This document shows, in pieces, positions 1,176 through 64,000 of a stretch of DNA of 64,000 nucleotides. The notes beneath the pieces were generated by a model. It was not told where the DNA came from. It did not search any database and saw only the letters and a program-made list of their open reading frames with translations. Numbering within the stretch: the stretch's first letter is position 1; the number at the start of each line of letters is the position of its first letter. Origin of the DNA: Pocillopora damicornis (lineage: Eukaryota); contig NW_020845861.1 of NCBI RefSeq assembly GCF_003704095.1, positions 372,001 to 436,000 of the forward strand, written 5' to 3'. The translations under genes were made by a program, and so were the position numbers.

Positions 1176-1837
1176 GAAGCGTGAAAGCATTGTGTTCTGT
1201 GGTTTTCATCTCTAAATCCAAACTCGCTAAAGAGCAATTTCTTCCCTGAACCCCCATTAAACGGCCGCTCACGAGGAGACATCGTCTGGTGTAACTTCCT
1301 TTGCCTCTCAAAGTCGCTCTGGCTCTTACTTAAGCTGGGTGGGAAGGCCTGGCGAGGTGGCTGACTTGGCGTCCTCCAATGTGCAGAATGGCTTTCTCGA
1401 GCTGGTTGTCTTGGAACACTCCAATTAAAAGAACCGATTTGTTCGGCTTGAACAGTATTTAGAAGCTTTTTATTTTCCACAAAACCAAACTCTGAAAGGC
1501 GTTTCTCTTGGGTAGTCTTAGGATTTCATCAAATTGTTTGCTAACTCTTCAATTTCCTTAGCAACAGTTGTTCCTTTTTGTACCAGTTTATCGCAATCTG
1601 CCTCAAGTTTCTTCACCGTGTTTCGCTTTGCTTGCAAATCGCTTTTTTGCTGTTCAATCAGGGCTTCAATATCGGCCCTTTGTTTTTCGGCCTCATCATC
1701 TATGTGATCAAAAGCGTGGCCATTGTGGTTTAAAGTCACGCAGGTTTGACAAACAGCTGTTTTACAGTTCTTGCAGTAATATTTCAGTTCTTCGTTCTTG
1801 TGTCGTGGTTCGGGACAAAATACAGGCCGTTTTAACA
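1130..1837 (-). pseudogene. TRIM-family remnant: B-box2 plus truncated coiled coil; 5' part lost in the gap
   Basis: Reads LKRPVFCPEPRHKNEELKYYCKNCKTAVCQTCVTLNHNGH (B-box2 Cys/His spacing), then a coiled coil to NNLMKS* at 1518. The downstream motif FGFVENKKLLNTVQAEQIGSF continues in another frame, implying an internal deletion and frameshift. Confidence 0.75.
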
Positions 1838-1938
1838 NNNNNNNNNNNNNNNNNNNNNNNNNNNNNNNNNNNNNNNNNNNNNNNNNNNNNNNNNNNNNNN
1901 NNNNNNNNNNNNNNNNNNNNNNNNNNNNNNNNNNNNNC

Positions 1939-2967
1939 TTGACTTGCTCGACTCTTTGTAGACTGGTCTTTTTTGAAATGAGAGGAGGTGAGAATTGATA
2001 ATTTCTTCTCCTTTGAGATTTCAGTACCTTGATCCATTTGTAAACATGGCAGGAATTTCTTGAGAATTTCTAAAACATATCTCCGTATCTCTCTCATCCG
2101 CCAGCAGTATAAGATGGGATTCAAAGACGAATTCAAAAATGCTAATGTCATTGAAAACTGAAACATTCCTTTCAGAAATAATCCGTGCTCAGACGTTACT
2201 ATGATCAGCATTGTACCAGTATAGGGAAGATAACAAGCGGTGAACACGATGTAAACATACAAGATGTTGACGGCCGATTTAAGCTTTCTTTTGCTCAGCG
2301 CTAATTCTTTGCAATTTTCACTTGCCGTTTGTTCTTGAGATTTTATTTGCAAATGATGTTTGCGGACAATGAGGTAGATTCTTACAAAAGTTATGGTGGT
2401 TGTGATGAAAAATATTACCGCAAATGTGCTGGACACTGCCTCTCGGTTAACATCTCCCAGGAACAGGTAACCGAGAGCTGCAACCGCGCTGAGCGTCCAT
2501 AGTACGGTCAGAGTAATGCCTACTCTCCTTTCTGTAACAATTTCCCTGTAACGAAGATGCAGGCTGATAGCGAGGAAGCGATCAAAACTGATCGCGGAAA
2601 CGATGAAGAATGAAACGCCGGCAAGAAAAGTTCCTACAACCAGAAAAGCAATCTTGGTTTTGCACTCAGAGTCATCCGGAGAAGCAGAATCACTTCGGAG
2701 CATCTCAAATATCACGGAGATGTACAAGGGCTGTACGACTAAGCCAACACCTAGATCGGAGAAAGCCAAACCAAGCAGCAGTATTTGCGAAGGAGATAGG
2801 GCACAAGTTGTCTTTGTTAGGGCACAGATGATAATCGTATTGCCAAATATTGCAGAGAGAGCCAAAATTCCGTTGATTATACAAAGCGCGATGTACCAGC
2901 TATAAAAGTCGTTCGTGTCGGGATAGTACTTGGAAATATCGTTACAAAACTCTTTTACTACCTTCAT
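1939..2967 (-). CDS. Intronless class A (rhodopsin-like) GPCR, cnidarian melanocortin/adenosine-receptor-like family; stop codon lies in the N gap
   Basis: Seven hydrophobic helices, with GN in TM1, LAxSD in TM2, FDRF (DRY-like), CYLP in TM6 and NSSLNPILY in TM7. The ORF runs into the gap at 1938. Confidence 0.9.
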
Positions 2968-3319
2968 GGTGTTCTGTCGACGGTGCCGCTGTAGACTGTA
3001 GAATATGTTAAAAAATAATCAGTGAAGTCTCGCCTTATGTACTTAATTTGAAGCCAAATTCGTAAACCACGAAAAGCTGGTTATTCAAAATTTAAAAGAA
3101 ACACCAAGGTATTAATTGCGGAAAGAGTAGAAACAAAATTTCAATAAGTTAAAACGAAAGTTTATAGCTCCACAAAAACGAACTGCGTGAACGTGATATG
3201 TTTTCGAGTCAGTTTATTTATGCAAAATCGTGGCACTGTCATATTTGCTCTCAGCCACTTGCGGATCGTTTACTCGAGAGGGACACCAATTTGTCAGATA
3301 ACTAGAAGCAAATGGTATC

Positions 3320-15700: not shown

Positions 15701-18700
15701 AAGTTGTGGAATGACATCTTTGTTTGGACTCAACAAAGGGTAAGTCGTGAAAAAACTAGAGGCGTATCGTAATCTCCGTGTAGTCAGGCGCTCGTAAATG
15801 GAAGGTCTAAGCATTATTTTCAAACACTGTTTCACACCTGTTTCACGAGAAAATTTGCGTACGAGAATTGCATTTGCAAGGCCTGTGAAAAGTATATGAA
15901 TTAGAAGCATATGAAAATTATTATCCCTTCCATACACTGTTTTTACATGCTATTCAACTCGTTTTTCAAGCCTAATTGTGGCAACTCGGCCAGACGCCTG
16001 CGCGTAAGAGCCTTAACGGAGATTTGTGACTAAACACGAACGACCCCGAATTTACATGGCCTCTTGGGGGAGGGCTTGAGTTAACAAACAAACTAACAAA
16101 CAAAAGAGGACAGAGGAAAATGAAATACGTACCCAGGGAATGTCGTTTATAATGCTCTGTATTCAGTTACATGCACTCTGTACCAAGCAGTACCATTTGA
16201 TATGCCAATTTTTGTTAATTCGATGACCAAACATCGAGCTCAAAATTTACTCCTTTGTTACATGGAACTCTTTCAACATTAGTGATAGTAGGAGTAACTG
16301 TATACAAGATGCTTTTGAGGTCATTTGAGATAAGAATATAAATGATCTAACTCAACAGCGCGGTCCCAAGCTCAGTTGATGGTGCATGCAATTTAGAAAT
16401 CGGAGTTAGTGTGTTTGAATCCTTTCGTTTTCAGTTGTTCACCGCTCGTTACAAAGTTTAAAAATCATTTTTTAAAAAAACCAACGTGTTTCTGTCTTTA
16501 TGTGTTGGTTTGTTCTTCTGATTTTCAGCTCGGATTACCGCAAGGATCTATCAAGGCCAGTGTTCTGATAGAGAGTATCTTTTGTTCATTTGAACTTGAT
16601 CAAATCCTGTTTGAGCTGCGGCATCACTCCGCTGGTCTGAACTGTGGCATGTGGGATTACTCCGCTTCTTTAATTAGCAACTTTGGTAAGTGAAAAAGTA
16701 GTAGCTAATGTCCTTTTTTACCTTTTCACCTTGACATCAGTATGCATATTCTCCATACTGTTCTCTGTGCATTTCCTAAGGTTCTGACAAGGAGAATTTG
16801 TTTAACAATCGAGAGTTTCTTTAGTTGATGATCATTTCCTTCATTCTTGTGACCCTCGTGTTTGATTTAGGCGTCATACTGTAAGGAGAAATTAGATACT
16901 GGTCATTGTTAGCGATTAATAACCGCGACTCAACTTCTCAACTCTTTTAGTCCATTTTAAAGTATCTCATTTACCATGTTTACAATCAGTGTTAGAATTT
17001 CCCTCCTTAACCATCAAGTCGTTTTATGCAGTTGGACGGACAATTAAATTTTGGTTTAGCTATTTCTGCGCTATGTTATACAGGCACTTGTTTATGAAGC
17101 TGGGTAAAACATTGTCGTTTCAGGACACAGGGCCGATTTCATTTTGCCTGATCGTAAGAAGTACGTATCTATGGACAAGCAGTACCTTAAAAGTTACATG
17201 CAGCTGGTTATTAAGGTACATTACATTGCAATAAATGCCTTAAATTATTAAAGTAATAACGGCCTGTCCATTGATTGAAAAAACAATACCATGTGCTTAG
17301 TATGCGCTCGTGCGTATTTTCCTACTCACGTGTGTTATGCGTAGTACAGGATGCGCGGTGCAATAATGAGGAATCACTTTAAAAAGAATTGTGATTCCTT
17401 TTCTTGTTGTCCAGACATGTCACGCACGAGGGTGTCACGCAACAGGGGGAATGGCGCCAGTTGTGTTACCGAAAGATAATCCGCATCTTCGACAGCAAAT
17501 CACTAATAAAGTCTGCAGGTAAGAATAGGAAATGAAAACAGATCCTTAGCTCTTTACATTTGTTTACGTAATGGTTCATGTCTAAAGTTCTCTCCAGAGA
17601 AATTCGGTGTAACTTTGTCTTGATGTTTTTTTGTTTAGAGCAAAACTGAACGAAATCAAAGCAGGAGCGGATGGATTTTTAGTGTTTGATCCTGATCTTG
17701 TGCAGCCTTTGATTCAGGTCAGTAATTTAGTGTGCAATTAAGTCACGTCGACTTTTATTGTTATTTTTTGTTGAGAAGAGTTTGTGAATTTTTTTTATAA
17801 AGAAGCCATTTAAGTGAGCTTGGCGGATGAGTAAGAACAAGGGGATATGCCAATTAACTTTGTTTCTTGTCAACCAATGTTATTTTCAGATGTGGAAGAC
17901 AGAGGTAAATTCCAAGAACCAGCTTCATGTAAGCCGTTCTGAACTGATGGTCTCTAGAAACGACCTTCTACAACTACCAAGGGTGAGAATACTGCTTGAA
18001 CGCGATAATTTATGAAGGCGCTCGAAGTTTTCATTTTAACTTATAGCTTTGTACATTTTTAGGGTGGATTCACCTTACAAGGATTACAGGATAACATTAC
18101 TGTCGGAATCCTGTTCATAGATGCTTGGTCAAGAGGTTTGTGTCTGGTCGTTGCATATCAGAATATTTTAGGCAATTGTATGCAAGGCAAAGCAAACTTC
18201 AGCTGAAAGACGGCTGCAGAATATTAGTTTGGTAAAGTAGAAAAATGTAACAGAATCTGTGATAAATCAAAAGGAAGCGTGGATTGATGAGGATTGAGGA
18301 GATGGAAGCGGATTACAATTCGTTTTGTAGCAGCGTAACCCGTTATACCCTAATATGGATATCCATATTCTCCATACTGTGCTCTACAAAATTTCTATGG
18401 TGCGAACGCGGAGAATTTGTTCATCTATCAAGAGCTCTAGTTGGCGATCATTACCTTCATTCTCGCGACTTTAATATTTGATTCCGCAGGGATACTGTAA
18501 GGAGAAATTAGATGCCAATCACTCGTAGGGGCCAAAGGGTTTAAAAACAGATTTTGAGATAAGTTGTACGGCTTATTGCATATTCAGTATAATGGCCCTC
18601 ACTCCGGATTAGAGTGCTTTAATGCTAATTATCATTGTTATTAAATATCAATTAATCAATGTAATCAGTTATCAATCTCAATTATCAATGTCCATTTCTC

Positions 18701-19202
18701 TGTCTTACTGCACGCACGCTCGTTCGCATTAACTTTTGTATGTTGCTCATTTATTCGTACCCAGGCCAGGGTGTGTTTGTGCTCAATGGAGCTGTAGAAG
18801 ACTCGGCCACAGCCGAAATTTCAAGGTCACAGGTAAGGTGGACACTGTTTTAGACACTACATACACAAGGGGATGATACACTTAAAGTTGTCTGAAAAAT
18901 GATCATGACAAATTTCTTAGCATATACTTCCTCCGTGTTACTTTCAGATTTGGCAGGCAATTCGCCATCGGTGCAAACTGGAAGGAGATGGCCTCATAGT
19001 GACTAAAGCCCTCGTTTGTGGTGAAATTAAACGTATCACAGACGAGCTTGTCAGCCAGAAATCTTACAACTCTGTTGATACAGAAAGACTTACGATGTCT
19101 GCTAAGATATTAGAGGAGCTCGTATTGAAGCGAGACTTCCCTCAGTTTATAACCACATACCTCTATGAACATCAAGCGTTTAGGAACAGCTTGCAATTAT
19201 AA
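12701..19202 (+). CDS. Malate synthase (glyoxylate cycle). 13 confident exons: 12701-12916, 13578-13668, 13879-13955, 14683-14793, 15680-15739, 16529-16685, 17124-17215, 17415-17518, 17639-17717, 17890-17982, 18063-18135, 18765-18832, 18949-19202. N-terminal exon(s) uncertain; candidates are 10250-10255 and 10779-10818, and others may lie in gaps
   Basis: GT-AG phase-consistent splicing gives DLDDGHCPSW, MFRPRAWN (catalytic Arg), PGPLFDFGL, GPFFYLPKLEG, SVLIES, GLNCGMWDY (Mg ligands), ATGGMA and VEDSATAEISRSQIWQ (catalytic Asp). Confidence 0.93.
12948..13152. mobile_element. TTAA-flanked ~200-bp MITE family A (piggyBac-like ends); other copies at ~19748-19950, 29960-30171, 30564-30775, 35170-35379
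   Basis: Shared core ...ttagtaattctccttactgtctgcc...gagaaattctgtcttggtcactc... with ends ttaaccc...gggttaa. Confidence 0.8.
14325..14533. mobile_element. TTAA-flanked ~200-bp MITE family B; other copies at ~16715-16920, 18335-18544, 22425-22626 (reverse), 22893-23090 (reverse), 26213-26426, 30369-30567, 38568-38778
   Basis: Shared core aacatcagtatgcatattctccatactg...gatcatttcc...ggagaaattagatg...cactcttagggg. The best copies end ttaaccc/gggttaa. Confidence 0.8.
15288..15485. mobile_element. MITE-like element in a malate synthase intron
   Basis: Termini tagtctgctctagacgttc and gaacgcctggaacaggcta are inverted repeats (15/19 match). Confidence 0.55.
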
Positions 19203-21627: not shown

Positions 21628-33860
<12,233 letters not shown>

Positions 33861-34241: not shown

Positions 34242-41342
<7,101 letters not shown>

Positions 41343-43578: not shown

Positions 43579-44532
43579 ATGGAGAACTCGAGTCTAACTT
43601 TAGCTCTAAATTCATCAGCGTCAAAATCAGGATGCGATGAATGGTTGGACATGATCTTTTTAGTGTTAGACGGATTATTATCAGGCGTAATTATAATCGG
43701 CAATGGAGTAACTTGTCTTATTCTCCTGAGAAACAGCCATTTCAGAAGCTGTTTTATGAACACTTTCCTCGTAAGTTTGGCTGTTGCGGATATTTTAATG
43801 GCTGTGTTTGTGATGCCGGGTGAGGTGATCTTTTGTACAAGTTGCAGCCAACCAGTCAGCGAATATTGCTGGCTAATCGGTTCCGTGAGATATTTTGTTT
43901 TTTCGGCAACGAAACTCAATCTGCTCGCCATTACCTACGACAGATACACAGCGGTGATGAGTCCTCTAAGGTACAACGCAAAAATCAACTTGAAGAAAGT
44001 CATCTCAATTCTTTCATTAGTATGGACGTTTCCCATGATTTTAACACTGAGCCGTTTAGTTTGGTGGATCAAGCTACCTCGGCATCAAGCTTTATACGCG
44101 GACCGTATCTTTAACACGTGTCTTATGTTCTCGCTGGTTACTCTACCTGTTGCTGTACTATTAGTTGCGAACCTCAGGATTGTATTGGAAATCAGAAAAC
44201 AGCATCGTCGAGTGAACACAATGGACAAAGCAAGCGTAACAGAAACTTGCTCAAGTAGCAACAATGCAAGCAATAAGCACAGACGGAAAACATCGCGTCA
44301 GGCGGGAAGAAAGGGAACAACGGCTTGTGTTCTTGTGGTGTTTATTTTTGTGATGTGTTGGTTTCCCAGGGGATTGTATAATACTTTCAGGCTGTTTGGC
44401 AAAGAAGGGCCGTTGTTGAGGGAACTAAGCCTGTTTTTCCTGTTTGTTCAGTCAGCCATTAATCCGTTCGTATACTCGTTTTACAGAACTGATTTTAGAC
44501 GTGCGTTGGTAAGACTTCTGCGATGTCGTTAG
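43579..44532 (+). CDS. Intronless class A GPCR, biogenic-amine/adenosine-receptor-like orphan, 317 aa
   Basis: Seven TM segments, with GN in TM1, SLAVAD in TM2, YDRY, CWFP in TM6 and NPFVY in TM7, plus N-terminal NSS/NSS glycosylation sites. Confidence 0.92.
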   Translation: MENSSLTLALNSSASKSGCDEWLDMIFLVLDGLLSGVIIIGNGVTCLILLRNSHFRSCFMNTFLVSLAVADILMAVFVMPGEVIFCTSCSQPVSEYCWLIGSVRYFVFSATKLNLLAITYDRYTAVMSPLRYNAKINLKKVISILSLVWTFPMILTLSRLVWWIKLPRHQALYADRIFNTCLMFSLVTLPVAVLLVANLRIVLEIRKQHRRVNTMDKASVTETCSSSNNASNKHRRKTSRQAGRKGTTACVLVVFIFVMCWFPRGLYNTFRLFGKEGPLLRELSLFFLFVQSAINPFVYSFYRTDFRRALVRLLRCR

Positions 44533-48671: not shown

Positions 48672-51600
48672 CTAGATGGTCAATAACTTCAGAGCAAACA
48701 CAGCCTCTACCATGTTATAAAACGCTTTCAAATCAGAGTAATCACAAAATTCCAAGTTGTACACGTGGCGACTTGTCGCAATCGAAGCAATGTGCCCAAG
48801 GTTTCCACTTTCATAACCTCCAACTCTTCTTTTTCGCCAGGTATACTTCAGGGCACTGGAGACGAGCCTTCCTGGCTGTACCATGCTAAGCTCTGAAACA
48901 TTGATTTTCATTTTAAGAGATTTTTGGTGCGCTCATGAATTTAAGAATAGGAAAAAGAATATATCCCATGATTCTTTATGTCTGCCTTACAAGAGATGCT
49001 TGCAATTGAGTTGTGAAAGTAAATGTTTGTTTTAAAAAACAGACGCATATTCCATACGTGAATACCCTCAAAGCAGAGGTATCACAACCATCCCCTACAG
49101 TTTTTTCAAGTTTCTCTTAGAGAATAAAGGTACTCTTTGTTTGGGTGAAGGGCGACAGAATGAGGGTCAAGTGGGTCGGTGACTGTTAAGTGTCTTGTTA
49201 GAAGCAAAAATTAAACAACCTGACCTGATACTTCACTTGAGAGCATTTGGAAAACAGAAAATAGAGGATCAAGCGGAGGGACTTTAACTTCCACATGAAC
49301 TTATTTCTATGGTAATTATTCCATTTTCAAATCAGCTATCCCAGGATGACTTAAATTGATCATATTCATTGAGGCAATTGAATTCTTCCCGGGAGACTCA
49401 TACGTCCAGATCCTAAACTTATTTAATTTTGGAGGGATTAGACCTGTATTAGGGATTGGAGTTCATAGCTTGATCCCCTTTTGACTAAGAAGCATGTTTC
49501 CTATCTTGGGGAACTGGTCCCAAGAAAAAAATGTTCACAAAAAACGAAAAGATTGATAAAGTTGCGCAGGGTAAAAACGTATAGTTACCTTTCAAATCGA
49601 TGATCTTTTTAGCTTTCTCGTTTTGAATCACTTCTCCTTCGCCAGATTTTGATCTCAACTCAAGTTTGTGGGAATCTTCATGAAAAAATAGGTCTCCGTA
49701 ATGCGGCATTTTGTTTCCTAATACAACAGAAAGGTGTTAATTAAGCATTAGATTCAGACAGGATACCTCTATCTATCATCTGAAAAGCTACATTGAGGCA
49801 GATCTCCAACATTTTCAGGCCTTCAAAACCTAGACCATAGAGGTCATAATGGCAATGAAAAGAGGGGAAATTTGCATGGAGTCAGTGATAACTCAGGGTA
49901 AACAATGGGAAAAGGCGAGTGACAAAGTCTCTACAGTTTTCAGAATGATTTTCTAGAAGAGTAATGGAACCACCGAAAATCCAGCATGCCTTTAGACAAT
50001 GATTGTATTTGAGAGAAGAAAAAGAAACTATGCTTCTTCAATAAAAGTACAGGCGTTTTTCAAATCACCTTTCTTCGAGTGGAGGAACACGCCTACACCA
50101 CCGGAAAGTTTCCCCACGGCGCGTCTTTGGTTGAACGTTCTTGGAGGTGTAGGGAATTCTGGGAACAACATGCGGTAGGTGAAGGCCAGGGCTGTTGCTA
50201 GGATACCCCCTGTTACTTGGGCTTGTGGTAACTCACTTAAGGAATAATGATCACCAGGACAAACGAGTACTGTGGTACCTCCATCTACCAACTCGCTCCA
50301 GACTTCCTCGATGCCGTGTGACGTGGGATTACGGGGCAAAAATCTGCTGTTCTGGCATTTGAGGAAAGTGAGGGGACCTCGATAGCGAACCTATTGAATA
50401 TAAGGAATGCAAAAATGCAAATAAAGTTATTCTCCAATCATAATCATCTTTCTAATAAATTTATGATGTCCAATGGCTTGATACTCTTCTCGTTATGTAA
50501 ATTAAATTTGGACAACCTACTTCCTTACTGTAAGGATATTCGTTATTCCTTACCTCTGCAGGCTGCCATTCTTGGTGCGTCCTATTGGCAATGGTTTGAT
50601 TCCTCAGAAGAGCGTCTCTTAGAGTCCTTAAATCGTAGGTAGTAAGACCTTTAGTAAGACTTCTTTTCTGTAACTCATCAACGGTCCAGTCTTGACTGTG
50701 TGTCTCTCTCATTTGTCGATATTCGTCAACGGACATCTTTAAGGAGTCTACTGCAAGCTTTTCCAAATAGCTTTCGAATTGGAGCTGAATAGAGATAAAA
50801 AGAAATCTGTTAATTTTCTAATGGAAGTAAAATACTCGTCATGGATCAAATGTAAAGCTACAAAACAGCTGTAGACCAATTGGAACGGTTAGTTATCAAG
50901 TCAATCAGGACAGATCTCTAAAAGCAAAGGAGATATTCTTTCTCCTTTACCTCCCTTTGGGTTCGTAAATCAATGATCCAATGATTTCCACTAGGTTAAA
51001 CCCATGCATTAAAACTATGATTCATAAAGAAGTGTCCTCACGAGCCAAAGTTATTGGAAAAATCACCCCAAAAATCACCCAATGAGGTATACGTAATAAA
51101 ATATGTGTACAACACATAACGGAAAAAATCTCAAAAATGACTTATTTGTATTTCGAGATTTTAATTCAAAATGCGAAATTTTTACTTATTCTAATGACAA
51201 TAATTCGATGATATATATTGAATATGAATAATTTTGACTCGTCGAACAAACCTGAACATGTTGCGATGGCAGCCATCCGTCTTTCTTCATGGAAAATAAC
51301 CTGGTGGTTATGGTCCGTGAACGCGGTGACCAAGGAAAGGTGTCAATCATAGCAACGAACTCCACCCTGTGATCCTGTTCGGTCAGTAGGGAAGCCATTT
51401 CGTACGCCAAAAGTCCTCCATAGGAATATCCCCCGAGAAAATAGGGTCCATGGCGCTGTTCTTTGACGATTAGCTGAACGTAGTGAGCGGCAAGCTCACG
51501 TACTCCACCCCAGTCCTCACTAATGACCGTAGGGTCAGTAAAGCCCAGAGCATAAAAGGATACTAAGTCCTAATAATACATGATAAATGAAAAAATGCGA

Positions 51601-54600
51601 GTCACAAGATGAGATTTTCGAAAATTATGAAGTAAACATTCATTTTTTGAGGTTAGGCGGAAGTGCAACCAGCCTAACACCCCTTAGTGATATATTCGGG
51701 GGGACCAAAGGAGGAACCTCCACGGGACAAAAATTGTAAAATCTCTTAAGATTTGGGACGGAAAGCGACCTCGAGTGCGTATCGTTACTCCGCCATCTCC
51801 GCCATGAGATGTAGGTTACCATGAAACTGTAACAAAGACAGCAGAATATTCCTTAGCCATAGATCCAAATTAATGTAAGACGATTGATCATAAATAATAT
51901 CCAAATGATTATCGCATCACTGACCGCTAAAAAAGGGCTAAAAAATGTCAATACTTCTCAGGTATGTACCTGTCCTTGAAATCCGGTAGAAATGGGAACC
52001 AAATTCAACGCGTAGCGATGTGAAGGGTGCACACAGAAGAACTTTATTGCTGATCCCTCAGGAGTGTAAAGGGGTAAAACTTGGACCTCATTCTTGGAGG
52101 GTACCACTGAAGCATTTATATCCTCCGTTGACTGAGTTTGGTCGGGTTCATTTCCTTGGCTCTCGCTATTCTGTGGGCTGACTGATTTTCCACGAAGCCT
52201 GTCATAGATGTCATTGGCCATTTTTAGTGTGGTAGTGTCGGGCTGCATAAAGTAGAACACCTGAAACAAAATGTTTTAATTGTTTCAAGTTTAACATACA
52301 CGGGTAGATTTATCTGCATAAAAGATCGAATTGAACTCACTGCAATAAGCTGCTTGAATAGACCATAACTATTTTCTATACATGATGATTAAAGTAGCCT
52401 TTGAAAGGAAGAAACTCATGTGCAAGTTTGTCAAAGAACTTTTCAAAATAAGAAGCTTTCAGGAAAATTGGGAGCGTTTTCATTGACTGTGAATGTAAGG
52501 ATAAGAAATTACGTATGCGGACTTACGCGACTCTCTTATATCTATCATAGGAGGAAATTAGAATCCAGTTTTTTTTATTCATCTTATGAAATACCCACCT
52601 CAAAAGATACCTGCAAGTTCGATTCAAGCAGCATTTTCAAAGTCAAAGCTGCAGTTGAGTCAATACCGTAGCTATACAAGCTTTTGTTTAGATCCGTCTC
52701 TGAAGAAGATGAACTGCCTGTCAATTCCGCAACTGACATGCGAACATACTCAAGAATAAGTTCCCTTTTCTTTTCGGGATCCTTCTCTAAGCGATTTTTT
52801 TGCAGTAAAGACTCTGCTGTATTAGTTTGGCTATCAGAACCACTGGTTTCTGTAGTAATCATTGCGAGTCGGGAAGTCTTCTGTAGTCCGGTATTACTTT
52901 TGATAAATCGAGGCCAGTCCACACCAAATAACGAGATCTGCGGGCGACTCGGCTCCTCGGTTAAGACCTTGGCCATAAGTTTGACTCCTGCAAAATTAAT
53001 CAAAAAATTGGTCACGAGAACTACAAGATGAACAAAATTGCTCTGGTGCTACTGTAAATAGTATAATAGAGGAAAAGGCAAGATTTCGCGGAAGAAAAAT
53101 TCCAGTGAATCGCTCGGTAAATAAAGTTATCTACTGATGGTAAGTCCTTTCCTGTCGGTATCACCACCAAAGCTTGCAAAGAAGCTGATTTGTTCTTATC
53201 GGCTCACCCTCCAGCATGAAGATCAGTGAGCTTACATATCCCATCACACACATTACACGTAGTCGTGCTCATTTTCATTTGTTTTGACTATTCTAGGCTC
53301 ATTTTGTTCTGTTTCTAGCATATTACAATTTGATCATGTTACTGAAATAACATTTTACCATCTTTGGCATTTATGAAGCCCAGTCCGCCTACTGCCATCA
53401 ATTTTGTAAGAGCACTCTGCCGTTCCATCACGCCAGCTCCACTTATTGGTCCCCAGTTTATCGAAAGTCCGGGTAGACTGAGCACTCGTCTTCGATACTG
53501 GGCAAGAGAATCTTGGAAGGCATTGCAGGCGGAGTATGATGATTGACCCATGTTTCCTACGATGGATGCCATGGATGAGAACATAACGAAGAAATCAAGA
53601 TCCATCTTCAAGCTCATTTGGTGTAGCAAGTAGGAACCTAAAGAAAACGTAGCACACTGATGATCTTGATTTAATTCATAGCTTGGCTATGACATGAACA
53701 GCGTTACCCTGATGATATTTCTACACAGCAACAATTCAAACAAATGAATTTAAGTAACTTTACAAACTCGAAAGTGATAATGTTGTTTAAGTGTCTTTAA
53801 TTTGCATTTTTACAGACAAGCTAATTTCGGATTCTCGTCTAGATTGATTTACTTATGTTAAACGGGTTTGTTTGTGAGGGTTAGGTGCACTTGCCTTTTA
53901 ATTACGTTTGTTTCATATATTTACTGAAGGTGAAATAGAAAACAAACACAGAAAAGAAGGTAAAGTAGTATTACTTGAGGTGTCAGACCTGTTGTAAGGT
54001 GTTAATCAATATATTCTTGGGTCGAAAGAAATGGTTTAAGGATAATAAAGTATGATAGCAGGCATGACATGCACCTTTAATCTTAGGATCCATGACATCT
54101 GTGAAACTTCTAAATGACCAATCTTTGATAAATTCATCTCTGAGAACCATGGCAGTATGTACTATTCCAGCCACACTTGGAATAGAGTCTAGCTGCTCTT
54201 TTAATGACTGCATTTGCTCTTGGCTGGATATGTCAATCTATAGCAACAAAAAAGAAAACTGTGAAATCCATGAGATAAAATGTGCTTTACTTTCTGGACA
54301 TCACACAACGTGAGCTTATATAGCATTTCTTATAAGGGAAATGTAATCGTAAAAATGTTGCAGCAAGTGAAAATTTACTATGGCAAACATGCCATAAATT
54401 ACCTGGAAAATATGAAACTTTGCGCCTGTCTTGGTCTCAATACCTCGTACTTCTTGATACTCGGCATCTGAGGGCTTGGAACGACCAATCAGTCNNNNNN
54501 NNNNNNNNNNNNNNNNNNNNNNNNNNNNNNNNNNNNNNNNNNNNNNNNNNNNNNNNNNNNNNNNNNNNNNNNNNNNNNNNNNNNNNNNNNNNNNAATCAA

Positions 54601-57600
54601 GATCCATCTTCAAGCTCATTTGGTGTAGCAAATAGGAACCTAAACAAAATGTATCACACTGATGATCTTGATTTAATTCATAGTTTAGCTATGATATGAA
54701 CATCGTTACTGTGATGATATTTCTACACAGCAACAATTCAAATAAATGAATTTAAGTAACTTTACAAACTCGAAAGTGATAAAGTTTAAGTGTCTTAGCA
54801 TTTCTAAAGACACGCTAATTTCGGATTCTCATCTAGATCGATTCACTTATGTTAAAAGAGTTTCATTGTGAGGGTTAAGTGCACTTGCCCTTTAATTACG
54901 TTTTTTTTATATATTTACTAAAGGTTAAATAGAAAACAAACACAGGAAAGAAGGTGAAGTAGTATTACTTGAGGTGTCAGACCTGTTGTAAGGTGTTAAT
55001 CAATGTATTCTTGGGTCGAAAGAAATGGTTCAAGGATAATAAAGTATTATAGCAGGCATGACATGCACCTTTAATCTTAGGATCCATGACATCTGTGAAA
55101 CTTCTAAATGACCAATCTTTGATAAATTCATCTCTGAGAACCATGGCAGTATGTACTATTCCAGCCACACTTGGAAGAGAGTCAAGCTTCTCTTTTAGTG
55201 ACTGCATTTGCTCTTGGCTGGATAGGTCAATCTAGAGCAACAAAAAAGAAACTTTGAAATACATGGGATACGATGTGCTTTACTTTCTGGACATAACACA
55301 ACGTGAACCTATATAGAATTTATTATCAGGGGAATGCAATCATAAAAATGTTGCACCAAGAGAAAATTTACTATAACAAACATGCTACAACGAACCTGGA
55401 AAATATGAAACTTTGCGCTTGTCTTGGTCTCAGTACCTCGTACTTGTTGATACTCGGCATCTGAGGGCTTGGAACGACCAATCAGTCCAATAGACTTTGC
55501 TCCATTCTCGGCCATCCAACGTGCCACTTGAAATCCGTATCCTCTGATCCCGCCTGCCACCAAGTACGTTCTTTTTTCTTTCAGACCACACTCGTCTAGA
55601 CCGCGTGGAAGAACGGGGGTCTTTTGATAATCACCGCTTTCTTTAGATGGAGCAAATGAGTGAATCAGAAAAGAAATACTTTGAAATGTTCTCATGGAAT
55701 TTTTAAATGGTGAGTTGTCCACCGTGAAATCGTTTGTAGCTTCAATGGCCGTCGTTATGTCCATCCTTATCAATTTGATTTCTTGTGGCTTTTTCAAAAG
55801 TGGTCCACCTTTTANNNNNNNNNNNNNNNNNNNNNNNNNNNNNNNNNNNNNNNNNNNNNNNNNNNNNNNNNNNNNNNNNNNNNNNNNNNNNNNNNNNNNN
55901 NNNNNNNNNNNNNNCTTGGAACGACCAATCAGTCCAATAGACTTTGCTCCATTCTCGGCCATCCAACGCGCCACTTCAAATCCGTATCCTCTGATCCCCC
56001 CTGCCACCAAATACGTTTTGTTTTCTTTCAGACCACACTCGTCTAGACCGCGTGGAAGAACGGGGATCTTTTGACGATCACTGCATTCTTTAGATGGAGC
56101 AAATGAATGAATCAGAAAAGAAATACTTTGAAATACTCTCATGGAAGTTTTCGATGGTGAGTTGTTTACAGTGAAATCGTTTGTAGCTTCAATGGCCGTC
56201 GGTATGTCCATCGATACCAATTTGATTTCTTGTAGCTTTTCCAGGAGTGGTCCACCTTTTAGCAGCTCTAGACTCTCTATACTGAGCTGTTGATAAGTTT
56301 GTGGTGTTAGGAGGATGTCTGAAATGCTTTCTCTCACATACATAACATTTTTCTTCGCAGGGAAGACGACGTCTCCATCAAATTCGGCTCCCAAGATAAC
56401 AACTTTTCCTCCGCGTTTGAGATTTCGACTGCTTTTTTGGAGAGCGTTCGGAGGGGGTGGGTAGAAAAACAAAACTGCATCAAAGGCGTGTCTGGAGTCA
56501 TCTTCAAATTTGGCGAGGCTCTGATTTGTAACATTCTCAGCTCCCAGCTCTAGGAGGGTAGATTTTGTTACGGATTGACAAGTGTCAGACACAGTGCAAA
56601 ATACTTTGTGACCCATTGCTTTCGCAAGGGCAACTGCTGCAGGTCCAGGGCCACGGTGAGCTTGATGTATAAGTAATCTCATATTTTCTTTCTTTGTTGC
56701 TGTGCGTTTTAGTGCATGCAAAGCTATGGCTAGGCAGGCAGGGATGTATGTTGCTTGTTCCTGTGTCAAAATGGCTGGCTTCACAAACGTGTTGGTGACT
56801 TGTATGGGAAGGGAACGAGAAACGCGCCCAGAGGCTGTAACGCCGCACACAACGTCTCCTATTTGCATCTGATTATTTGCGGTCTCTCCTGATAGGTGAG
56901 TGACCTCTCCAACGGTGAAAACACAGGCATTTGGTTTGGATACATCAAGAATTGATTCCGAAGGTGTCCAGCAATAAAGCAGTTCTATTGTGACCTCGGA
57001 GGGCGATGGTTTTGAAAAGCTCTTCTGGCGAAGGCAGACTTTCCTTGTACCGGGGATAGACGATAAGTACAAAGAACCCCAGTCGCTTTCATTACTGTGT
57101 GGTGTGGGTTGCTCTATGGATATGTTTGATCTCACAACATGATTTATGAACCGCTTTCCATCTCGAAAGGCGACCTCCTCTTCAATGCTATCGCCAAGTA
57201 TTTCCGAAAGCAACAAGTCCACCTCAGTAATGTCATTCTTGTTGCCAAGATCAATGGTTGTGATACCCAGATCAAATTCTTCGAGTTTCGCTGTTCGTCG
57301 AAGTCCCCAGATAGTAGACGCCCAAGGAATGGAATTGACTTGAGACTCAGTTGTGGTATTTAGGAACTGTGTACTTTCAGAGACGAGTAACAGTCGAGAA
57401 TCAAGCATTCCCTTGCTTACGAGCTGTTGGATCAAGAAGACTGAGCTGCTGAAGGCGAGGTTTTGTGCTTTTTCAATAACATCAAATTTGTTTGGTAGGA
57501 GATTTGTCTCTACTGGCCACATGTTGACGACTTTGAGGAAGGATAAATTGCCTGAGGGTACACCAGTTAACGCTGAACTGATTACGTCTTCCGTTTTGGT

Positions 57601-60600
57601 GTCAAAAGATAGAGCATTGGGTGGATCAACTGTGATTACGTTGACTTTTGCGGTGCGAAGTTTTCCGATTAAGGTGTCTGATAAAGGAGAGCTGTCCCTT
57701 AGAAGAAGACAGGTCAAGTTTGGCGAAATTTCTCTTTGTGTCTGTAACTTATCTTCAATCCACTGCACTTCATAGACAAGGTCATCAGAGGGAAATCGTC
57801 GTGGTGTGCTATTTAATTCTGCAACACGGAATTCCCTCATGGTCAGTAGAATTTTTCCAGATGGACTGGTAAGCGTGACGTCGAATTTTCCGAACTCTTT
57901 GACATCCCCAATAACGTGACAATAAAGTTGATTGGTATTTGGAAGGTCATTCAAAGTGATACCTTCAAATCCCACCGGTACAACAGACTTCTCGTCAATA
58001 GCTGAAGATCCAAGAGGAATGAAGCAGGATTGAAGACAAGCGTCTAAAATGGAAGGGTGAACCACATAATTTTCAATTTCTGATTGAACCATGAGTGATT
58101 CACGGATATCGATCAGGCAAAGCCCCTCGTTATCACGGTACCAGGTCTGTTTAATGATGGAGTAAGCACCACCGTACTGAAAGCCGTACTTTTGTGTTAT
58201 TTCTCTGAATCGTTCAATCGGCATCTCTGTCATACTTCTGATCAGGTCATTAACAGCTGGTCCAACTTGATTGCAGGCTGTTAGAATCAAAATGATGGAG
58301 AGATGTATTTTTTTAACTTCTATTTAAGAGTTATTGTCTCTTAGAATTGTTACGGTCACAGCATCTTTTCCAAGAAAAATGCGTCATTAACTTGAACATT
58401 TTTTATCAAATTTTAAGCGATAAATTTTTTAAATTTTTAAACAAATGGATAGATAAATCGATATATAACGAATCGAGAATCTTGCAAGCGTTAAATGTTT
58501 TGGTACCTTCTTCCTCGAAGTTTCTTCTTGTGTGCAAGAGATCTACGGAGATGTTTCCACCACTTAACATAATTTCAGACTGGTCTTCCTGTACGCTCGT
58601 GATCTGGAACTGAGCGTTATCAATTATTTCGGTCCTTAAAAGGCGAAGACGTAAGGATCTAACCTAAAGTGCAAAGGACGAAGAAGTCAGATAAAGTCGA
58701 CTTAGCTCCTTAGCTTGCCTCTAATTAATTTGCACACATAATTATTACCTGTGTTTCAGGAAGAGTGAGAAGACTTGAAAGCTTCACATCACTTAGTTCC
58801 AGGCCAGAGGTATGAACGAATTTATCCTTTACCATTGCAAAGGCCATCTCCAAGTAAGCAGCTCCAGGCATCACAGCACCCCCCTCGCTTAGGGCGTGAT
58901 CCTTCAGGGATGGAAAGTTGAAAAGATCAATCTCAGTTTCCCAGCAGTGTAGGCCTGAATATAAGTCGGTCATTTTGACTTGTGCTAGATAGGGATGTGT
59001 TGGCTTCTTAATGGTTTCTTTAGAGTCAATTGGGTGTACTATCGCTTGTGGTGGGTGTTCCCTGTACCAAAAGCTGCTTTCCACCCATGGAGATTCTGGT
59101 AGCCGGATGAACCTCGCTGATTGGCTCCCCTGCACAGAAGTCCAGTCAACAGGAAATCCCATTGTATACAATTTGCACACCGTGTTCTGAATAAAGTATC
59201 TGTGCTGGTCCTCGATGGGCACTCTCTTACGAGGAAGAGTTGCAATGACAACAGGCCTTTCTTCTTCCGTCAGATCTTCCTGAAGAGCTATCTGTTTCAC
59301 GTAATGGGAAAGAATTGGCTGCGTACTGATCTCAATTATCTGTTTGTAACCATCCCGTAGTAGGTGTTTCATCGCTGAATAGAACCGAACAGGACAGCGT
59401 ATATTTTGCCACCAGTAATTGCTGTTTAATTGCTGACCCGAGACAACTTCACCTTTAACCGTAGAGTACATCGGAATTTTTGATAACTGAGGGTTAAATT
59501 TCACACTTTTCATAGCTTCCTGAAATGGTTTTTTGATCGGCTCCATGTGAGAGCTGTGAAATGCACGATTCGTTCCAAGAACGCGCCAGAAAACATCTTT
59601 TGCATTCAACGATAGATGTTGCCCAAGTGCCTCGATGGATTGCGAATCACCAGCAACTGTGACACTTTTTGCATCATTGACCGCTGCTATGTCGAGGGTG
59701 GCGCTTAACCTTAGATCAAAAAGTAACTCCCTGGCCTTTAATTCTGAGATTCCCAGGGCAGCCATACCTCCATTGTTCGGGCATCTATCTTGAAGATTGG
59801 CGCGAGTTAATACCAGCTGAACTGCTTCCTTGACAGTAATGATACCAGCAACACAGGCAGCTGCAAACTCTCCTAAACTGTGACCAATAACAGCAGAAGG
59901 ATGGACTTTCCAGGACTTAAGGAGCTGTGCAGTTGCGTACTGAACAGCAAAAGTGGCTGGCTGGGCAATGTAGCTTTCTGTTATTCGTGAAACGTCTTCT
60001 GGTGCCATCAATTCGTCCTCGAGTGACCATGTTTCTCCCAAGTCTTTAAGAAAGCTGCTGACTGTTAAAATAGCATCTCTGAAAACAGTTTCAAATTCCA
60101 TTAACTGCCTTCCCATGGCATACCATTGTGACCCTTGACCCCCAAACATGAAAACGACTTTTCTAACACTCGAAGTCACCTCGGCATAAGAAGCCAACTT
60201 TTCCCAACCAACGGAGTTAACAGCGAAAGCTTCCAATGACTTGGATGCTTCGAGAGCGGTTCCAAAGGCAAGAGCTAGGCGATGCGGATATTGGCTTCGA
60301 CGTTCGTTTAAGGAATAGCACAAGTCTTGCGCAAAGTGTTCATCCGTTTCATCAGCCTTGTTTTTAATCCACGCGGAGTAAAGCTCTGACATCTTCTTAA
60401 GACCCTCTAGAGAACGAGCTGTAATGGTGAGGACATTGTTCTTGCGTATATAGTTTTGACCTTCAAAACTTGGCGTCGGTGTAGCTTCACGAAGAATGGC
60501 ATGCACATTTGACCCACCATAGCCGAATGAGTTTACGGCTGCTATTCGCGGCTTGCCATTTTCTGTGTTCCAAGCCTCTCGAATTTGTTGCAATATAAGT

Positions 60601-63600
60601 CCTTTTTCTTCTAGCTTTAGTTTGGGATTCAACACCTTGACGTTGATAGTTGGTACAAACGTCTTGTTTCTTATCATCAGAGCGGTCTTAATAAGCCCAG
60701 CAAGTCCAGAAGTAGATTCCGTGTGATTGAGATTAGATTTTACAGAGCCAATCCTCAATTTTCGTGAAGAAGTTGCGCCCTGGTTAGAGTAAGTATCTGC
60801 TATAGAGTTGACTTCCACCACATCACCAATTGCAGTACCAGTCCCATGTGCCTCGAAGTAATCCACGTCTTCTGCGGTCACTCCTGACTGCTCAAGTACT
60901 CTTCTTGATAACTCAGCTTGCATCTTGGCACTTGGAGCAGTGATGGGCACGGCATTTTGACCATCGTTGTTCATTCCACATGCAACGATCTCGCAATAAA
61001 CATCGTCTTTGTCACACAGAGCATCTTTTGTCAACTTTAACACAACCGCTGCGAAGCCCTCCCCGCGTCCATAACCGTCCCCAGAAGCATCAAAACTTTT
61101 GCAACGGCCGTCTGGCGCGAGAAGTCCGGCCATACTAGTTACCATCTGCATGGAATGATCAAGGACGACATTGGGTGCACAAACGATGGCTATATCGCAA
61201 TCATCGTGATGGAGATTGTCACAGGCTAGTTTAAGGGCAGTTAGCGATGAAGAACAGGCTGTATCCACAGCAATACTTGGTCCTGTTAGATTTAGGCAAA
61301 ATGACACTCTGTTGGCAAGAATAGACGCCGTTATCCCCGTTGAAGAATACTGATTAATGTTGCTGTAATTAGACCGGTCTGTTGTGAGAGCGCCGTACTC
61401 AAGGTTCATCACACCAACAAAAACACCTGTTCTACACTTTTGTAAATCTTCAAGCCGCATTCCTGCATCTTCGATTGCCTCGTAGACTACTTGAAGGAGT
61501 ATTCTTTGCTGAGGGTCCATCGCGCGTGCCTCTTGATTGGAGATACCGAAGAACCTGTTGTCAAAAGTTTGTATTTCTTCCAAGTAGGAACCATTGATGG
61601 CACAAAGGCGTCCATTAACGAAGCGCTTAGGATTGTAGAGCTCAAAAAACGCTTTATGCTCCTGTGTTCGATTATCGGGAAACGGACGGATGGAACTCTT
61701 TCCTTCCTCAAGCAAAACCCAAAAAAGGTCCTTACAGTTGGCGCCGGGGAATCTACAACTGATGCCAATGATAGAGATCTGGGGACGTTTAGCCTTGAGC
61801 TTTGTTATGTCACCATTCCGTGCCTCAAGTAACATTGAGTCATATGCTTCCAGGTAATGTTCCACTAACTCCTCGCTATCCTTAGAATTAAAATAGTGAA
61901 CTAACTCCTCAAACAATACAAGGAACGTGGGAACGACAATCAGAGCATGGATTGACCCTAGAGCGAAGACCAGAGGAAGTAGTAGAAAGAAAATATCTGA
62001 CAGACTGGGAAATATAAATCCTAAGGAGATAGATGCTAATATGGATGAAATTGTGCCTGCTAGCACGGATACTCCAACAGAGCGTAGACCGTCGATCATG
62101 CGATCTTGTATACCCTTCTTAGCTGAGAGTACGTACGAATAACCCACTTCAATACTAGAATTCAAAGAAAGGATAATCGTCAAGTAAAGAGAAATGAAAG
62201 ACACAGGATCGAGATAAATTCCAAACGTGTTCATAATTGCAGCTGCTTCCAGTACTAGGACGTCGAATGCTAAAGTCAGGATTGTACTAACACCTAGATG
62301 ACACGTCGCAAATAGAGAAACTGTAAACACCACCACTGTGCCAACTGCGAGGACTATGGAGATTGTTTCTTCTTCTAACTTGACGAGGTCGTCAACAGCG
62401 AAAAACTTTTCGGAGACTGGAATAGCTTTCAGGAAAGAATATTCTTGTAAATCGCCCCTCAGTTTCCTCAGGGATTTTCTATCGTCTTGAAATCGGTTTT
62501 TAAGAGTCATTCTGAGATGAATTCGAGACGCCGATATTTTGACAAGGGATATAGAATCTTTTAGAAGCAAGTCTTGTCTAAACGGCAAACTTTGGGAATT
62601 GTTCAGGAAAATCTCAAAGCATCGGTAGAATTCTGAGTACCGACAATTCATGTTTTGATGTTTAACCCATTGTCGGAAGTCTTCCGTCCAACAAAGCGAC
62701 CTTCCTTTACTGTAAGGGGCCTCTTGCAGTTTTTCACACAGTGATACTACTTGATTTTGCACACTTTTTAGCGGGTAGTCAATGTCCTCGGAGAAAACGA
62801 TGCTTACATCAGTTTCGTTGCTAAAGAAAATTTGTCGTGCCTTATCGAATTGCTTGAAGTTTTCATTCTGGTAGTATGAGTCTATGGTACGTGCCCTCTC
62901 TCCAGTTTGAAATGCAGACAAAACACACAAAATAATGAGTAGGGCGAAGATACCAAGGGAGATAATTTTGCCGCCAGTTGATGTTATTTTACGAGCTAAC
63001 GTCTTCAGAATCCGTTGCAGTTTTGTTTTATGGTAAAGTGAGTGTCTTAGTTCAAAGCTGCCAGCTTCAACGTTCGACAACCTTCTTTCACATGCTGCCG
63101 CACAAGGAGTATTTATGGTCTTAAGCTTCCTTTCAAAATACAGCAACACAATGACTGTGATTGTCAAATTAGAAGCAGAAACAGCTAGATGAGCGGCAAG
63201 TGTTGCAAAGAAGAAATGGGAAATTCCCCTGAACGAGGATTTCACTGCCACTCCACAAAGAATTGACCCACAAAGCGCAGTTGCGGTGGCGAGGACCCCT
63301 GTTCTAGCCAGGCAATTGCCAACGCGATGTTCAAGTGATGGCACCATTTGATGCCTTTCCCATTCAACGAGGAAAAGTACCACGTCTGTAATTACTTTCC
63401 CCAACAAAAAGAATGGTATGAACAGTGAAGTTGAGGTAAAGGCAAAGTTCGTCATCGAGACAAAACCTGCAGAACACGTTAATGGTAACACAAAGCATGA
63501 GAATAAGAGGAGGACCGTCCTTAAACAAACGGCATTGGCAGAAGAAAAGTGTATTACAATGAATGCAAGGGCAGCTATCGCAAAAACTGTAACACAAAGA

Positions 63601-64000
63601 GGCCATAGCTCTGGTTTGAGGACGTCTTGCAAGGCCTTGGTTGTTGCTCTCCCAGTCTTGTAGGAAAGTTCTGCACATTTCAAGCGAGGACTGACTGATG
63701 TGAGGAGATTGCTAAACGTGACTTCAAAATCCTCGATTTTTTGGTACTCTTCTGGACTGGTTGTCTTTCTTACGAAGTAAATAGCCTGAAGAGCGTCGGC
63801 ATGAGCCGTTAATCGATCTCTGTTCCGCTCTAGGTAGAAATTGGCCAGCATTTGACGATAGGAATGTTTAAATGTTTGGCCAGAGGAAAGAACAGTAGTA
63901 GGCTTTACCGACTCGCGAGCCAGAATAGAGGAGAGATTTTTCAGATTTTGAAAATTAGTTCCAGCTAACTCAAGAGGACTGCTAATCATGCAATTTTTTT
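48672..64000 (-). CDS. Membrane-anchored iterative type I PKS: Patched/NPC1-like TM domain-KS-AT-DH-ER(degenerate)-KR-ACP-TE-PH-like; 5' end outside the window. Exons: >64000-58749, 58663-58507, 58277-55915 joined to 54474-54403, 54237-54075, 53637-53359, 52987-52599, 52260-51970, 51569-51252, 50784-50554, 50390-50069, 49717-49589, 48892-48672
   Basis: KS motifs DTACSSS, EAHGTGT and KSNLNH; AT motifs GQGSQW, GHSLGE and RAFHS; DH motifs DHALSEGGAVMPG and HPSILDACLQ; KR motifs GGIRGYG, VLRD and SSMAS...QSSYSACN; ACP GIDS; TE GYSYG, IDT and GDHY. Eleven hydrophobic helices lie upstream of the KS in the same ORF. All inferred introns are GT-AG with consistent phases. Confidence 0.9.
54595..55814 (-). 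repeat. Diverged second copy of the PKS ER-end/KR segment (exons and introns), placed between two 100-N gaps
   Basis: Duplicates 56261-55915 and 54494-53595. The flanks of the two gaps overlap by an identical 20-mer (55915-55934 = 54475-54494). Confidence 0.85.

What the first reader, a model, noticed from the sequence alone, without database searches (positions are those of the whole stretch)
56050..57090. The PKS enoylreductase looks inactive while KR and DH are intact, predicting a conjugated polyene product
Seen: the ER NADPH-binding segment reads LLIHQAHRGPGPAAVALAK instead of the canonical xLIHxxxGGVGxAAxQxA. The N-terminal GLNFxD motif is replaced by CWTPSES. The KR keeps its GxGxxG-type motif, an LRD (B-type-like) motif and the S/Y/N residues, the DH keeps its His and Asp, and no SAM-binding methyltransferase motif is visible. 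Known: iterative PKSs with KR and DH but a dead ER leave double bonds and make polyenes, as in the parrot psittacofulvin synthase. Inference: the product is an unbranched polyene acid or ester (possibly a pigment, UV screen or signal lipid) rather than a saturated fatty acid.
Basis: partly seen in the sequence, partly recalled or inferred. Interest (0 to 1): 0.7.

Follow-up and report, generated by a model that had tools for sequence, protein, structure and literature searches.

The report
Coral polyketide synthase with dead reductase
This spliced, transcribed coral gene encodes a giant polyketide synthase fused to a membrane domain; its enoyl-reductase part lacks the cofactor-binding and catalytic motifs in every relative checked, so it likely makes an unsaturated, polyene-type lipid, a product that is still untested.

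Summary
The gene (minus strand, about 48,670 to beyond 64,000) is a stony-coral PKS: 12-helix NPC1/Patched-like domain, KS, AT, DH, psiKR, ER, KR, ACP, TE and a PH-like tail. Its ER lacks NFxD, GGxG and the catalytic-lysine motif. These occur in 0 of 20 family members against 132, 141 and 126 of 146 canonical ERs, and the same genome's FAS has all of them. The ER keeps the reductase fold but diverges like the non-catalytic psiKR. The loss is family-wide, shared with sea anemones, so it is not recent decay. A 1.44-kb duplicate inside the KR is an assembly artefact skipped by 2 RNA and 5 DNA runs; the spliced frame is open. A dead ER is about 0.93 likely. A polyene acyl product is about 0.55 likely; a plain psittacofulvin-like acid about 0.4. 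The same prediction failed for the slug enzyme EcPKS2. The patched-PKS family is already named in a 2026 preprint and polyene synthesis with a dead ER is known chemistry. The family-wide pseudo-ER was not found in ten paper searches.

The parts
61914..64000 (-). N-terminal NPC1/Patched-like membrane domain, 12 predicted helices; continues beyond the window end to about 64,480; start codon not located
   Evidence: Pfam Sterol-sensing/Patched below cut-off; NPC1L1/NPC1 E about 5e-6; Foldseek NPC1 E 2.5e-22 on a pLDDT 57 model; hydropathy
60483..61784 (-). Ketosynthase, Cys-His-His intact
59157..60161 (-). Acyltransferase with GHSLG and RAFHS (malonyl-type by the recalled bacterial rule)
57811..58997 (-). 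Dehydratase over three exons, His and Asp kept; His-to-Pro spacing 9 rather than the usual 8
57127..57786 (-). Structural pseudo-KR; no methyltransferase
   Evidence: position and low conservation; the label is inferred
56101..57078 (-). Pseudo-enoylreductase: reductase fold kept, NADPH-binding and catalytic motifs lost
56953..56973 (-). CWTPSES in place of the LNFxD motif
56635..56676 (-). Altered Rossmann loop, RGPG for GGVG
56380..56412 (-). ILGA in place of EIGK: catalytic lysine absent
   Evidence: role of the Lys from PMC7473843 passage
53359..56028 (-). Ketoreductase in four pieces (56028-55915, 54474-54403, 54237-54075, 53637-53359)
   Evidence: RNA joints, spliced model
54475..55914 (.). 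Assembly artefact: N gap, about 92% identical copy of ER end and KR exons, N gap
   Evidence: skipped by contigs of 2 of 3 RNA runs and 5 of 5 DNA runs; repeats
52195..52772 (-). ACP over two exons, Ser at GIDST 52667-52653
50175..52050 (-). Thioesterase over four exons, Ser-Asp-His present
48672..50126 (-). C-terminal domain of about 135 aa over three exons, PH-like (lead only)
   Evidence: ESM Atlas score 0.82 for the Nematostella relative P0164; alignment

Best explanation
This is a transcribed single-module polyketide synthase of the hexacoral 'patched-PKS' family whose enoyl-reductase domain lacks its NADPH-binding and catalytic motifs and is likely a dead, structural domain, so the enzyme would iteratively leave a double bond at most cycles and likely release a polyene acyl chain at a membrane. 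Shown: domain order, motif loss across the family, intact KS/AT/DH/KR/ACP/TE motifs, no MT, an open spliced frame and relaxed but purifying evolution of the ER. Inferred: iteration; malonyl loading; KR (LRD, B-type) plus DH giving trans alkenes (textbook rule, recalled); TE release as acid, ester or lactone; anchoring or lipid hand-off by the 12-helix domain. Split of odds: ER dead 0.93; product mainly a polyene acyl chain 0.55; a plain unbranched fully conjugated acid about 0.4.
For: Motifs: 0 of 20 family segments versus 126-141 of 146 canonical segments for three diagnostic motifs. Of 74 columns at least 80% conserved in 40 canonical ERs, 48 are lost in 17 family members, and those kept are mostly Gly/Pro/Ala. 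The same genome's FAS ER has all 9 patterns. Rate: at KS identity 55-70%, the ER is 31 points below the KR in 23 family pairs, versus about 1 point in 87 canonical pairs. The DH is better kept in the family (41%) than in canonical pairs (31%). dN/dS among three paralogs: ER 0.26-0.28, psiKR 0.17-0.24, KS 0.07-0.10, AT 0.08-0.11; rough, dS 1.3-2.3. Fold kept: pLDDT 88, MAS Z 26.1, rmsd 3.3 over 320 residues. Gene intact: 11 CT..AC joints from RNA contigs and 3,586 codons without a stop. Precedent, passages only: MuPKS/GgPKS, LpaA and PPS1 with Lys replaced, EcPKS1/2. No stand-alone reductase match on either PKS contig among 22 matches.
Against: No product, assay or tissue data. PMC10515154 (passages) reports that a motif-based prediction of a malonate-derived polyene for EcPKS2 failed: it used methylmalonate and skipped reduction in some cycles, and the authors state animal PKS products cannot now be predicted. 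The KS is only about 42% identical to the nearest canonical PKS in hand on a long branch; no vertebrate PKS was compared. The DH motif has a one-residue longer spacing, seen in 14 of 173 non-family matches. About 19 other reductase-family matches lie elsewhere in the genome and could act in trans. 'Canonical' ERs are unnamed homologues, not assayed enzymes, and the and sets were chosen on the GGxG motif. The ER model used an alignment containing canonical ERs, which favours that fold. No coral polyene acid was seen in the listing of one metabolite search.
Confidence: 0.55

Rival explanations
1. The ER is dead, but KR and DH are used only in some cycles (or the extender is not malonate), giving a partly reduced polyketide: a keto- or hydroxy-polyene, lactone, pyrone or small aromatic.
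For: EcPKS1/2 have a dead ER yet place ketones regioselectively and use methylmalonate. The TE's nearest non-family hits are NRPS/PKS terminal TEs at E 1e-13 or weaker, which can cyclise (recalled). Paralogs have diverged.
Against: A TE with a full triad is present; pyrones are linked to a missing off-loading domain. The KS-AT scores higher with bacterial PKSs (CurL 502 bits) than with FAS (318) or EcPKS1 (281), so the bacterial AT rule may hold better here.
Confidence: 0.28
2. A separate trans-acting reductase (LovC-like, recalled) completes some or all cycles, giving a saturated or partly saturated special lipid; in anemones it might even stand in for FAS.
For: Many stand-alone reductase-family genes exist in the genome. 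The preprint says actiniarians lack type I FAS. PMC6334511 raises the same caveat for the duck PKS.
Against: No such gene matched on contigs C2496 or C3843 or among 73 neighbouring frames. This coral has a FAS with an intact ER. Bird orthologues give polyenes alone in yeast.
Confidence: 0.1
3. The domain has been re-purposed (unusual cofactor, other chemistry, or a binding role) rather than simply silenced.
For: 20 columns are conserved in the family but not in canonical ERs, e.g. R104, P227, G254, R268. The loop often reads HEANRGPG (E or D in 25 of 30 parsed, R/K in 25 of 30). The last Gly is kept in 30 of 30.
Against: It diverges like the non-catalytic psiKR (25-27% versus 30-34% identity to anemone proteins; KR 53-59%). 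No candidate catalytic residue is invariant at the old active site.
Confidence: 0.05
4. The gene is broken or mis-assembled and makes nothing.
For: Two N gaps and duplicated exons inside the KR; a deleted copy exists elsewhere in the genome.
Against: RNA contigs are spliced across all introns and skip the duplicate; one 5,462-base contig runs from 57759 to past the stop. There is no stop in the model, and the Stylophora orthologue is 74-91% identical per domain.
Confidence: 0.02

Closest known systems
'Cnidarian PKS' clade with patched domain (bioRxiv 10.64898/2026.04.08.717340, section 12 read; Fig. S15 not seen) and Acropora 'other-KS-AT-DH-KR-ACP-TE' PKSs (PMC4604110, table passage and section 19)
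   Same: Patched-like N-terminus, KS, AT, DH, KR, TE; few copies per coral genome.
   Different: Neither text read mentions an ER remnant, a product or a C-terminal PH-like tail. PMC4604110 reports no PKS in Nematostella, whereas Nematostella and Actinia members were found here.
Bird MuPKS/GgPKS psittacofulvin synthases (seen through passages of PMC6334511, PMC11739604, PMC7036892; Cooke 2017 not held)
   Same: Iterative animal PKS with KR and DH and an ER lacking the NADPH motif.
   Different: The vertebrate PKSs are described without TE or membrane domain. Their product is shown (C14-C18 polyene acids). Orthology to the coral family was not tested.
Fungal polyene synthases LpaA and PPS1 (PMC7473843, passages)
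   Same: KS-AT-DH-ER0-KR-ACP-TE with the catalytic Lys replaced.
   Different: They carry an active MT and make methyl-branched polyenes; no membrane domain.
Slug AFPKs EcPKS1/EcPKS2 (PMC11831141, PMC10515154, passages)
   Same: Ordered but inactive ER; unsaturated products.
   Different: FAS-derived, methylmalonate users, no TE, pyrone products; more distant in KS-AT.
Mycocerosic acid synthase (MAS)-like PKS
   Same: DH-psiKR-ER-KR layout without MT; best sequence and structure match of the ER.
   Different: The MAS ER has its motifs (ATGGVG, EIG) and makes saturated branched acids.
NPC1 / Patched / PTCHD RND-type membrane proteins
   Same: 12 helices and the overall fold.
   Different: Fused to a PKS. 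The TM10 Asp of a stand-alone PTCHD-type gene is Asp in 0 of 11 family members, and the TM4 Asp sits one residue later in 10 of 11.

Membership tests
Active PKS/FAS enoylreductase | Two-domain MDR fold | tested here: met
   pLDDT 88; Foldseek CurF/JamJ/CurK E about 1e-18, TM about 0.68; VIA Z 26.1
Active PKS/FAS enoylreductase | GGxG pyrophosphate loop | tested here: not met
   RGPG; 0 of 20 versus 141 of 146
Active PKS/FAS enoylreductase | Catalytic Lys in EIGK | tested here: not met
   ILGA; 0 of 20 versus 126 of 146; K250 column 0.00 in family
Active PKS/FAS enoylreductase | NFxD, TAY, VLNS, HxGK motifs | tested here: not met
   All absent in register; all present in the genome's own FAS
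Active PKS/FAS enoylreductase | NADPH-dependent enoyl reduction | not testable with these tools
   needs an assay
ER0 polyene synthases (MuPKS, LpaA type) | Intact KS, AT, DH, KR, ACP with dead ER | tested here: met
   (motif level)
ER0 polyene synthases (MuPKS, LpaA type) | Malonyl-CoA extender | tested here: inconclusive
   GHSLG and R/KAFHS in 12 of 12 sequences with an AT; the rule is recalled and failed for EcPKS2
ER0 polyene synthases (MuPKS, LpaA type) | Conjugated polyene product | not testable with these tools
   no chemistry available
ER0 polyene synthases (MuPKS, LpaA type) | Orthology to vertebrate PKS | not tested
   no named vertebrate PKS was among the sequences compared
Cnidarian patched-PKS clade | Patched-like domain plus KS, AT, DH, KR, TE | tested here: met
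Cnidarian patched-PKS clade | KS groups with other hexacoral PKSs, apart from FAS | tested here: met
   13 coral and anemone KSs on one side of a branch with SH-aLRT 100, quick tree; the preprint's own sequences were not included
RND/NPC1/PTCHD transporter | 12 helices with NPC1-like fold | tested here: met
   12 hydrophobic peaks in 3 coral proteins, 11 in 2 anemone proteins; Foldseek E 2.5e-22, low-confidence model
RND/NPC1/PTCHD transporter | Acidic residues in TM4 and TM10 (ion coupling; role recalled) | tested here: not met
   TM10 Asp in 0 of 11 (Asn in 9); TM4 Asp offset by one in 10 of 11
LovB/LovC-type pair | Trans-acting ER encoded beside the PKS | tested here: inconclusive
   none matched on the two contigs, but the search is exon by exon and animal partners need not cluster
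PH domain (C-terminal tail) | PH fold | tested here: inconclusive
   Atlas feature score 0.82, under the 0.9 lead threshold; no Pfam hit

The most novel reading that the evidence does not exclude
Stony corals and sea anemones share an ancient, self-contained membrane machine: one polypeptide that builds a host-made conjugated polyene lipid and hands it through its own NPC1/Patched-like domain into or across the membrane. This would be a class of animal metabolite not yet described in cnidarians, and knock-out in Nematostella could test it.
Probability: 0.25. Interest if true: 0.8.

Novelty: new variant of a known kind. Interest (0 to 1): 0.5.

Why it matters
The products of most animal PKSs are unknown, and coral PKSs were proposed to help skeleton formation (PMC4604110). 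A dead ER across the family narrows the product to an unsaturated polyketide with a likely UV-visible signature, which can be sought directly in yeast extracts and coral tissue. Members in non-calcifying anemones argue against a calcification-only role and give a genetically tractable host. The fusion to an NPC1/Patched-like domain places the synthesis at a membrane.

Tried and rejected
Homodimer prediction for the ER domain: no verdict (score 0.01, alignment not used), so it is not used either way. A KS-region homologue search returned almost only multi-module bacterial PKSs and no animal comparators. The careful KS tree did not finish; quick trees were used. The FAS row ran into an intron and has a long branch, so its position is not relied on. 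Loose motif patterns ([DN]SR, GxE, VLNS) gave off-register hits in the family and were not counted as retained motifs. One of 31 family segments (P0168) was not parsed; 12 of 176 non-family segments gave no motif match; six partial family hits were left out of both sets. A real exon duplication in the KR was rejected; RNA run X15 showed no joint there, and the insert matches neither assembled paralog (73-85%), so its source is unexplained. No upstream first exon was found. Earlier scan notes: nothing by place, sequence or words. Cooke 2017 and Arbore 2024 are not held. 10.1101/2022.03.23.485437 and PMC11413580 (passages) and PMC10764717 (passages) had nothing on this ER. Contig depth was not used to rank expression.

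Full report
What the locus is. The window lies in a 234-Mb animal genome (G000:C2496). The nearest named protein is from the stony coral Stylophora pistillata, 80% identical over the DH-to-KR exon. The gene runs on the minus strand from beyond the window end (about 64,480) to 48,672. Pfam and alignment give a Patched/sterol-sensing-like N-terminus, KS, AT, DH, a reductase remnant, KR, ACP, TE and a 135-aa tail.

Is the gene intact? Two N gaps flank a 92% identical copy of the ER end and KR exons. Contigs of 2 of 3 RNA runs and 5 of 5 DNA runs join 55915 directly to 54474, so the 1,440 bases between are an assembly artefact. With 11 CT..AC joints from RNA contigs the spliced frame has 3,586 codons and no stop. 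One RNA contig spans 57759 to past the stop. The start codon was not found.

Observation. Four DNA runs show 0 to 2 other letters over the ER, none in the loop. Of the 9 listed variants inside the ER, 6 are silent and none is a stop (271 rows were not shown). The catalytic Lys named in PMC7473843 (passage) is also gone: ILGA stands for EIGK. In segments chosen by profile score, NFxD, GGxG and E[ILM][GAS][KR] occur in 132, 141 and 126 of 146 non-family ERs and in 0 of 20 family ERs each. The genome's own FAS carries all nine patterns tested. Two divergent members keep a GLG end of the loop (TGLG, SGLG) but lack the other motifs.

Dead but kept. The predicted structure is a full reductase fold (pLDDT 88; MAS Z 26.1, rmsd 3.3, 320 residues), with the caveat that canonical ERs were in the alignment. 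Of 74 columns conserved in canonical ERs, the family keeps 26, mostly Gly, Pro and Ala, and loses 48. At KS identity 55-70%, ER identity is about 1 point below KR in 87 canonical pairs and 31 points below in 23 family pairs (the pairs are not independent). Against anemone proteins the window's ER is 25-27% identical, psiKR 30-34%, KR 53-59% and KS 61-66%. dN/dS among the three assembled paralogs is 0.26-0.28 for the ER against 0.07-0.11 for KS and AT (dS near saturation). This is the pattern of a structural pseudo-domain. An ordered, inactive ER at the dimer interface is described for EcPKS2 (PMC11831141, passages); that role is inferred here, not shown.

The other domains. KS Cys-His-His, AT Ser, KR Lys-Ser-Tyr-Asn with an LxD motif, ACP Ser and TE nucleophile-Asp-His are conserved in the full-length members, apart from truncated or mis-predicted models; one Nematostella TE has Cys. 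The DH His is invariant in 13 of 13, and the DH is better conserved in the family (41%) than in canonical pairs (31%), despite a one-residue longer motif. No methyltransferase is detected.

Range. Two full paralogs lie on C3843. Named members come from Stylophora, Oculina, Desmophyllum, Actinia and Nematostella, and their KSs form one side of a branch with support 100. ER loss therefore likely predates the coral-anemone split. Anemones do not calcify (general knowledge), which weakens the calcification link proposed in PMC4604110 on the ground that Nematostella lacks a PKS.

The membrane domain. It has 12 hydrophobic helices and matches NPC1, NPC1L1 and Patched by sequence and predicted fold. 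In those proteins the C-terminus is cytosolic (recalled), which would put the PKS in the cytosol. Against a stand-alone PTCHD-type gene of the same genome, the TM10 Asp is absent in 11 of 11 members and the TM4 Asp is offset, so ion-driven export is doubtful; anchoring or passive hand-off is at least as likely.

Mechanism. Likely: AT loads malonyl, KS condenses, KR and DH give an alkene, no ER step follows, the cycle repeats, and TE releases a polyene acid or ester at the membrane. Bird PKSs do this in yeast and so do LpaA and PPS1. The main counter-case is EcPKS2, predicted by motifs to make a malonate polyene and found to make methyl-branched, partly unreduced pyrones (PMC10515154, passages). 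A trans-acting ER is not excluded: none matched on the PKS contigs, but other reductase genes exist. No evidence bears on pigment, UV screen or signal.

What is known. The family is named in bioRxiv 10.64898/2026.04.08.717340 (passages and section 12; supplement not seen) as patched plus KS, AT, DH, KR, TE, with no ER mentioned in the text read. Ten paper searches (listings only unless cited above) showed no paper on this family's ER or product; the library lacks most subscription journals.

Verdict. Known chemistry in an unusual, already noticed architecture: new variant of a known kind, interest 0.5.

Noticed in passing
G000:C3843 about 113.5-118.3 kb (L015:4497-9322): Internally deleted copy of the PKS, about 80% identical in DNA to the window's gene: KS C-half, AT and DH start joined to TE end and tail, with frameshifts.
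   Followed up: partly
L016:3834-6822, + strand (G000:C3843 about 106.8-109.8 kb): Stand-alone PTCHD-type gene with intact TM4 and TM10 Asp, next to the PKS copies; only about 20% identical to the fused domain, so not shown to be its source.
   Followed up: partly
window 48700-50414: Contigs of two RNA runs and one DNA run carry a second version about 88% identical (records 2, 10, 14): a further close paralog or divergent copy not placed in this assembly.
   Followed up: no
window 54595-55814: The source of the mis-scaffolded 92% copy is unknown; it matches neither assembled paralog.
   Followed up: partly
proteins P0164, P0318, P0326, P0327: Nematostella and Actinia have this PKS family although PMC4604110 lists none for Nematostella; the preprint says actiniarians lack type I FAS.
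   Followed up: partly
L005 / G000:C1436 199-208 kb: The genome's type I FAS, with a fully canonical ER.
   Followed up: yes
window 16397-19199 (+): Malate synthase exons (glyoxylate cycle enzyme).
   Followed up: no
window 23591-29357 (-), 1762-3018 (-), 43579-44532 (+), 40205-40468 (+): NatA auxiliary subunit exons, two rhodopsin-family GPCRs and a weak RING-finger match; no tailoring enzymes near the PKS.
   Followed up: no
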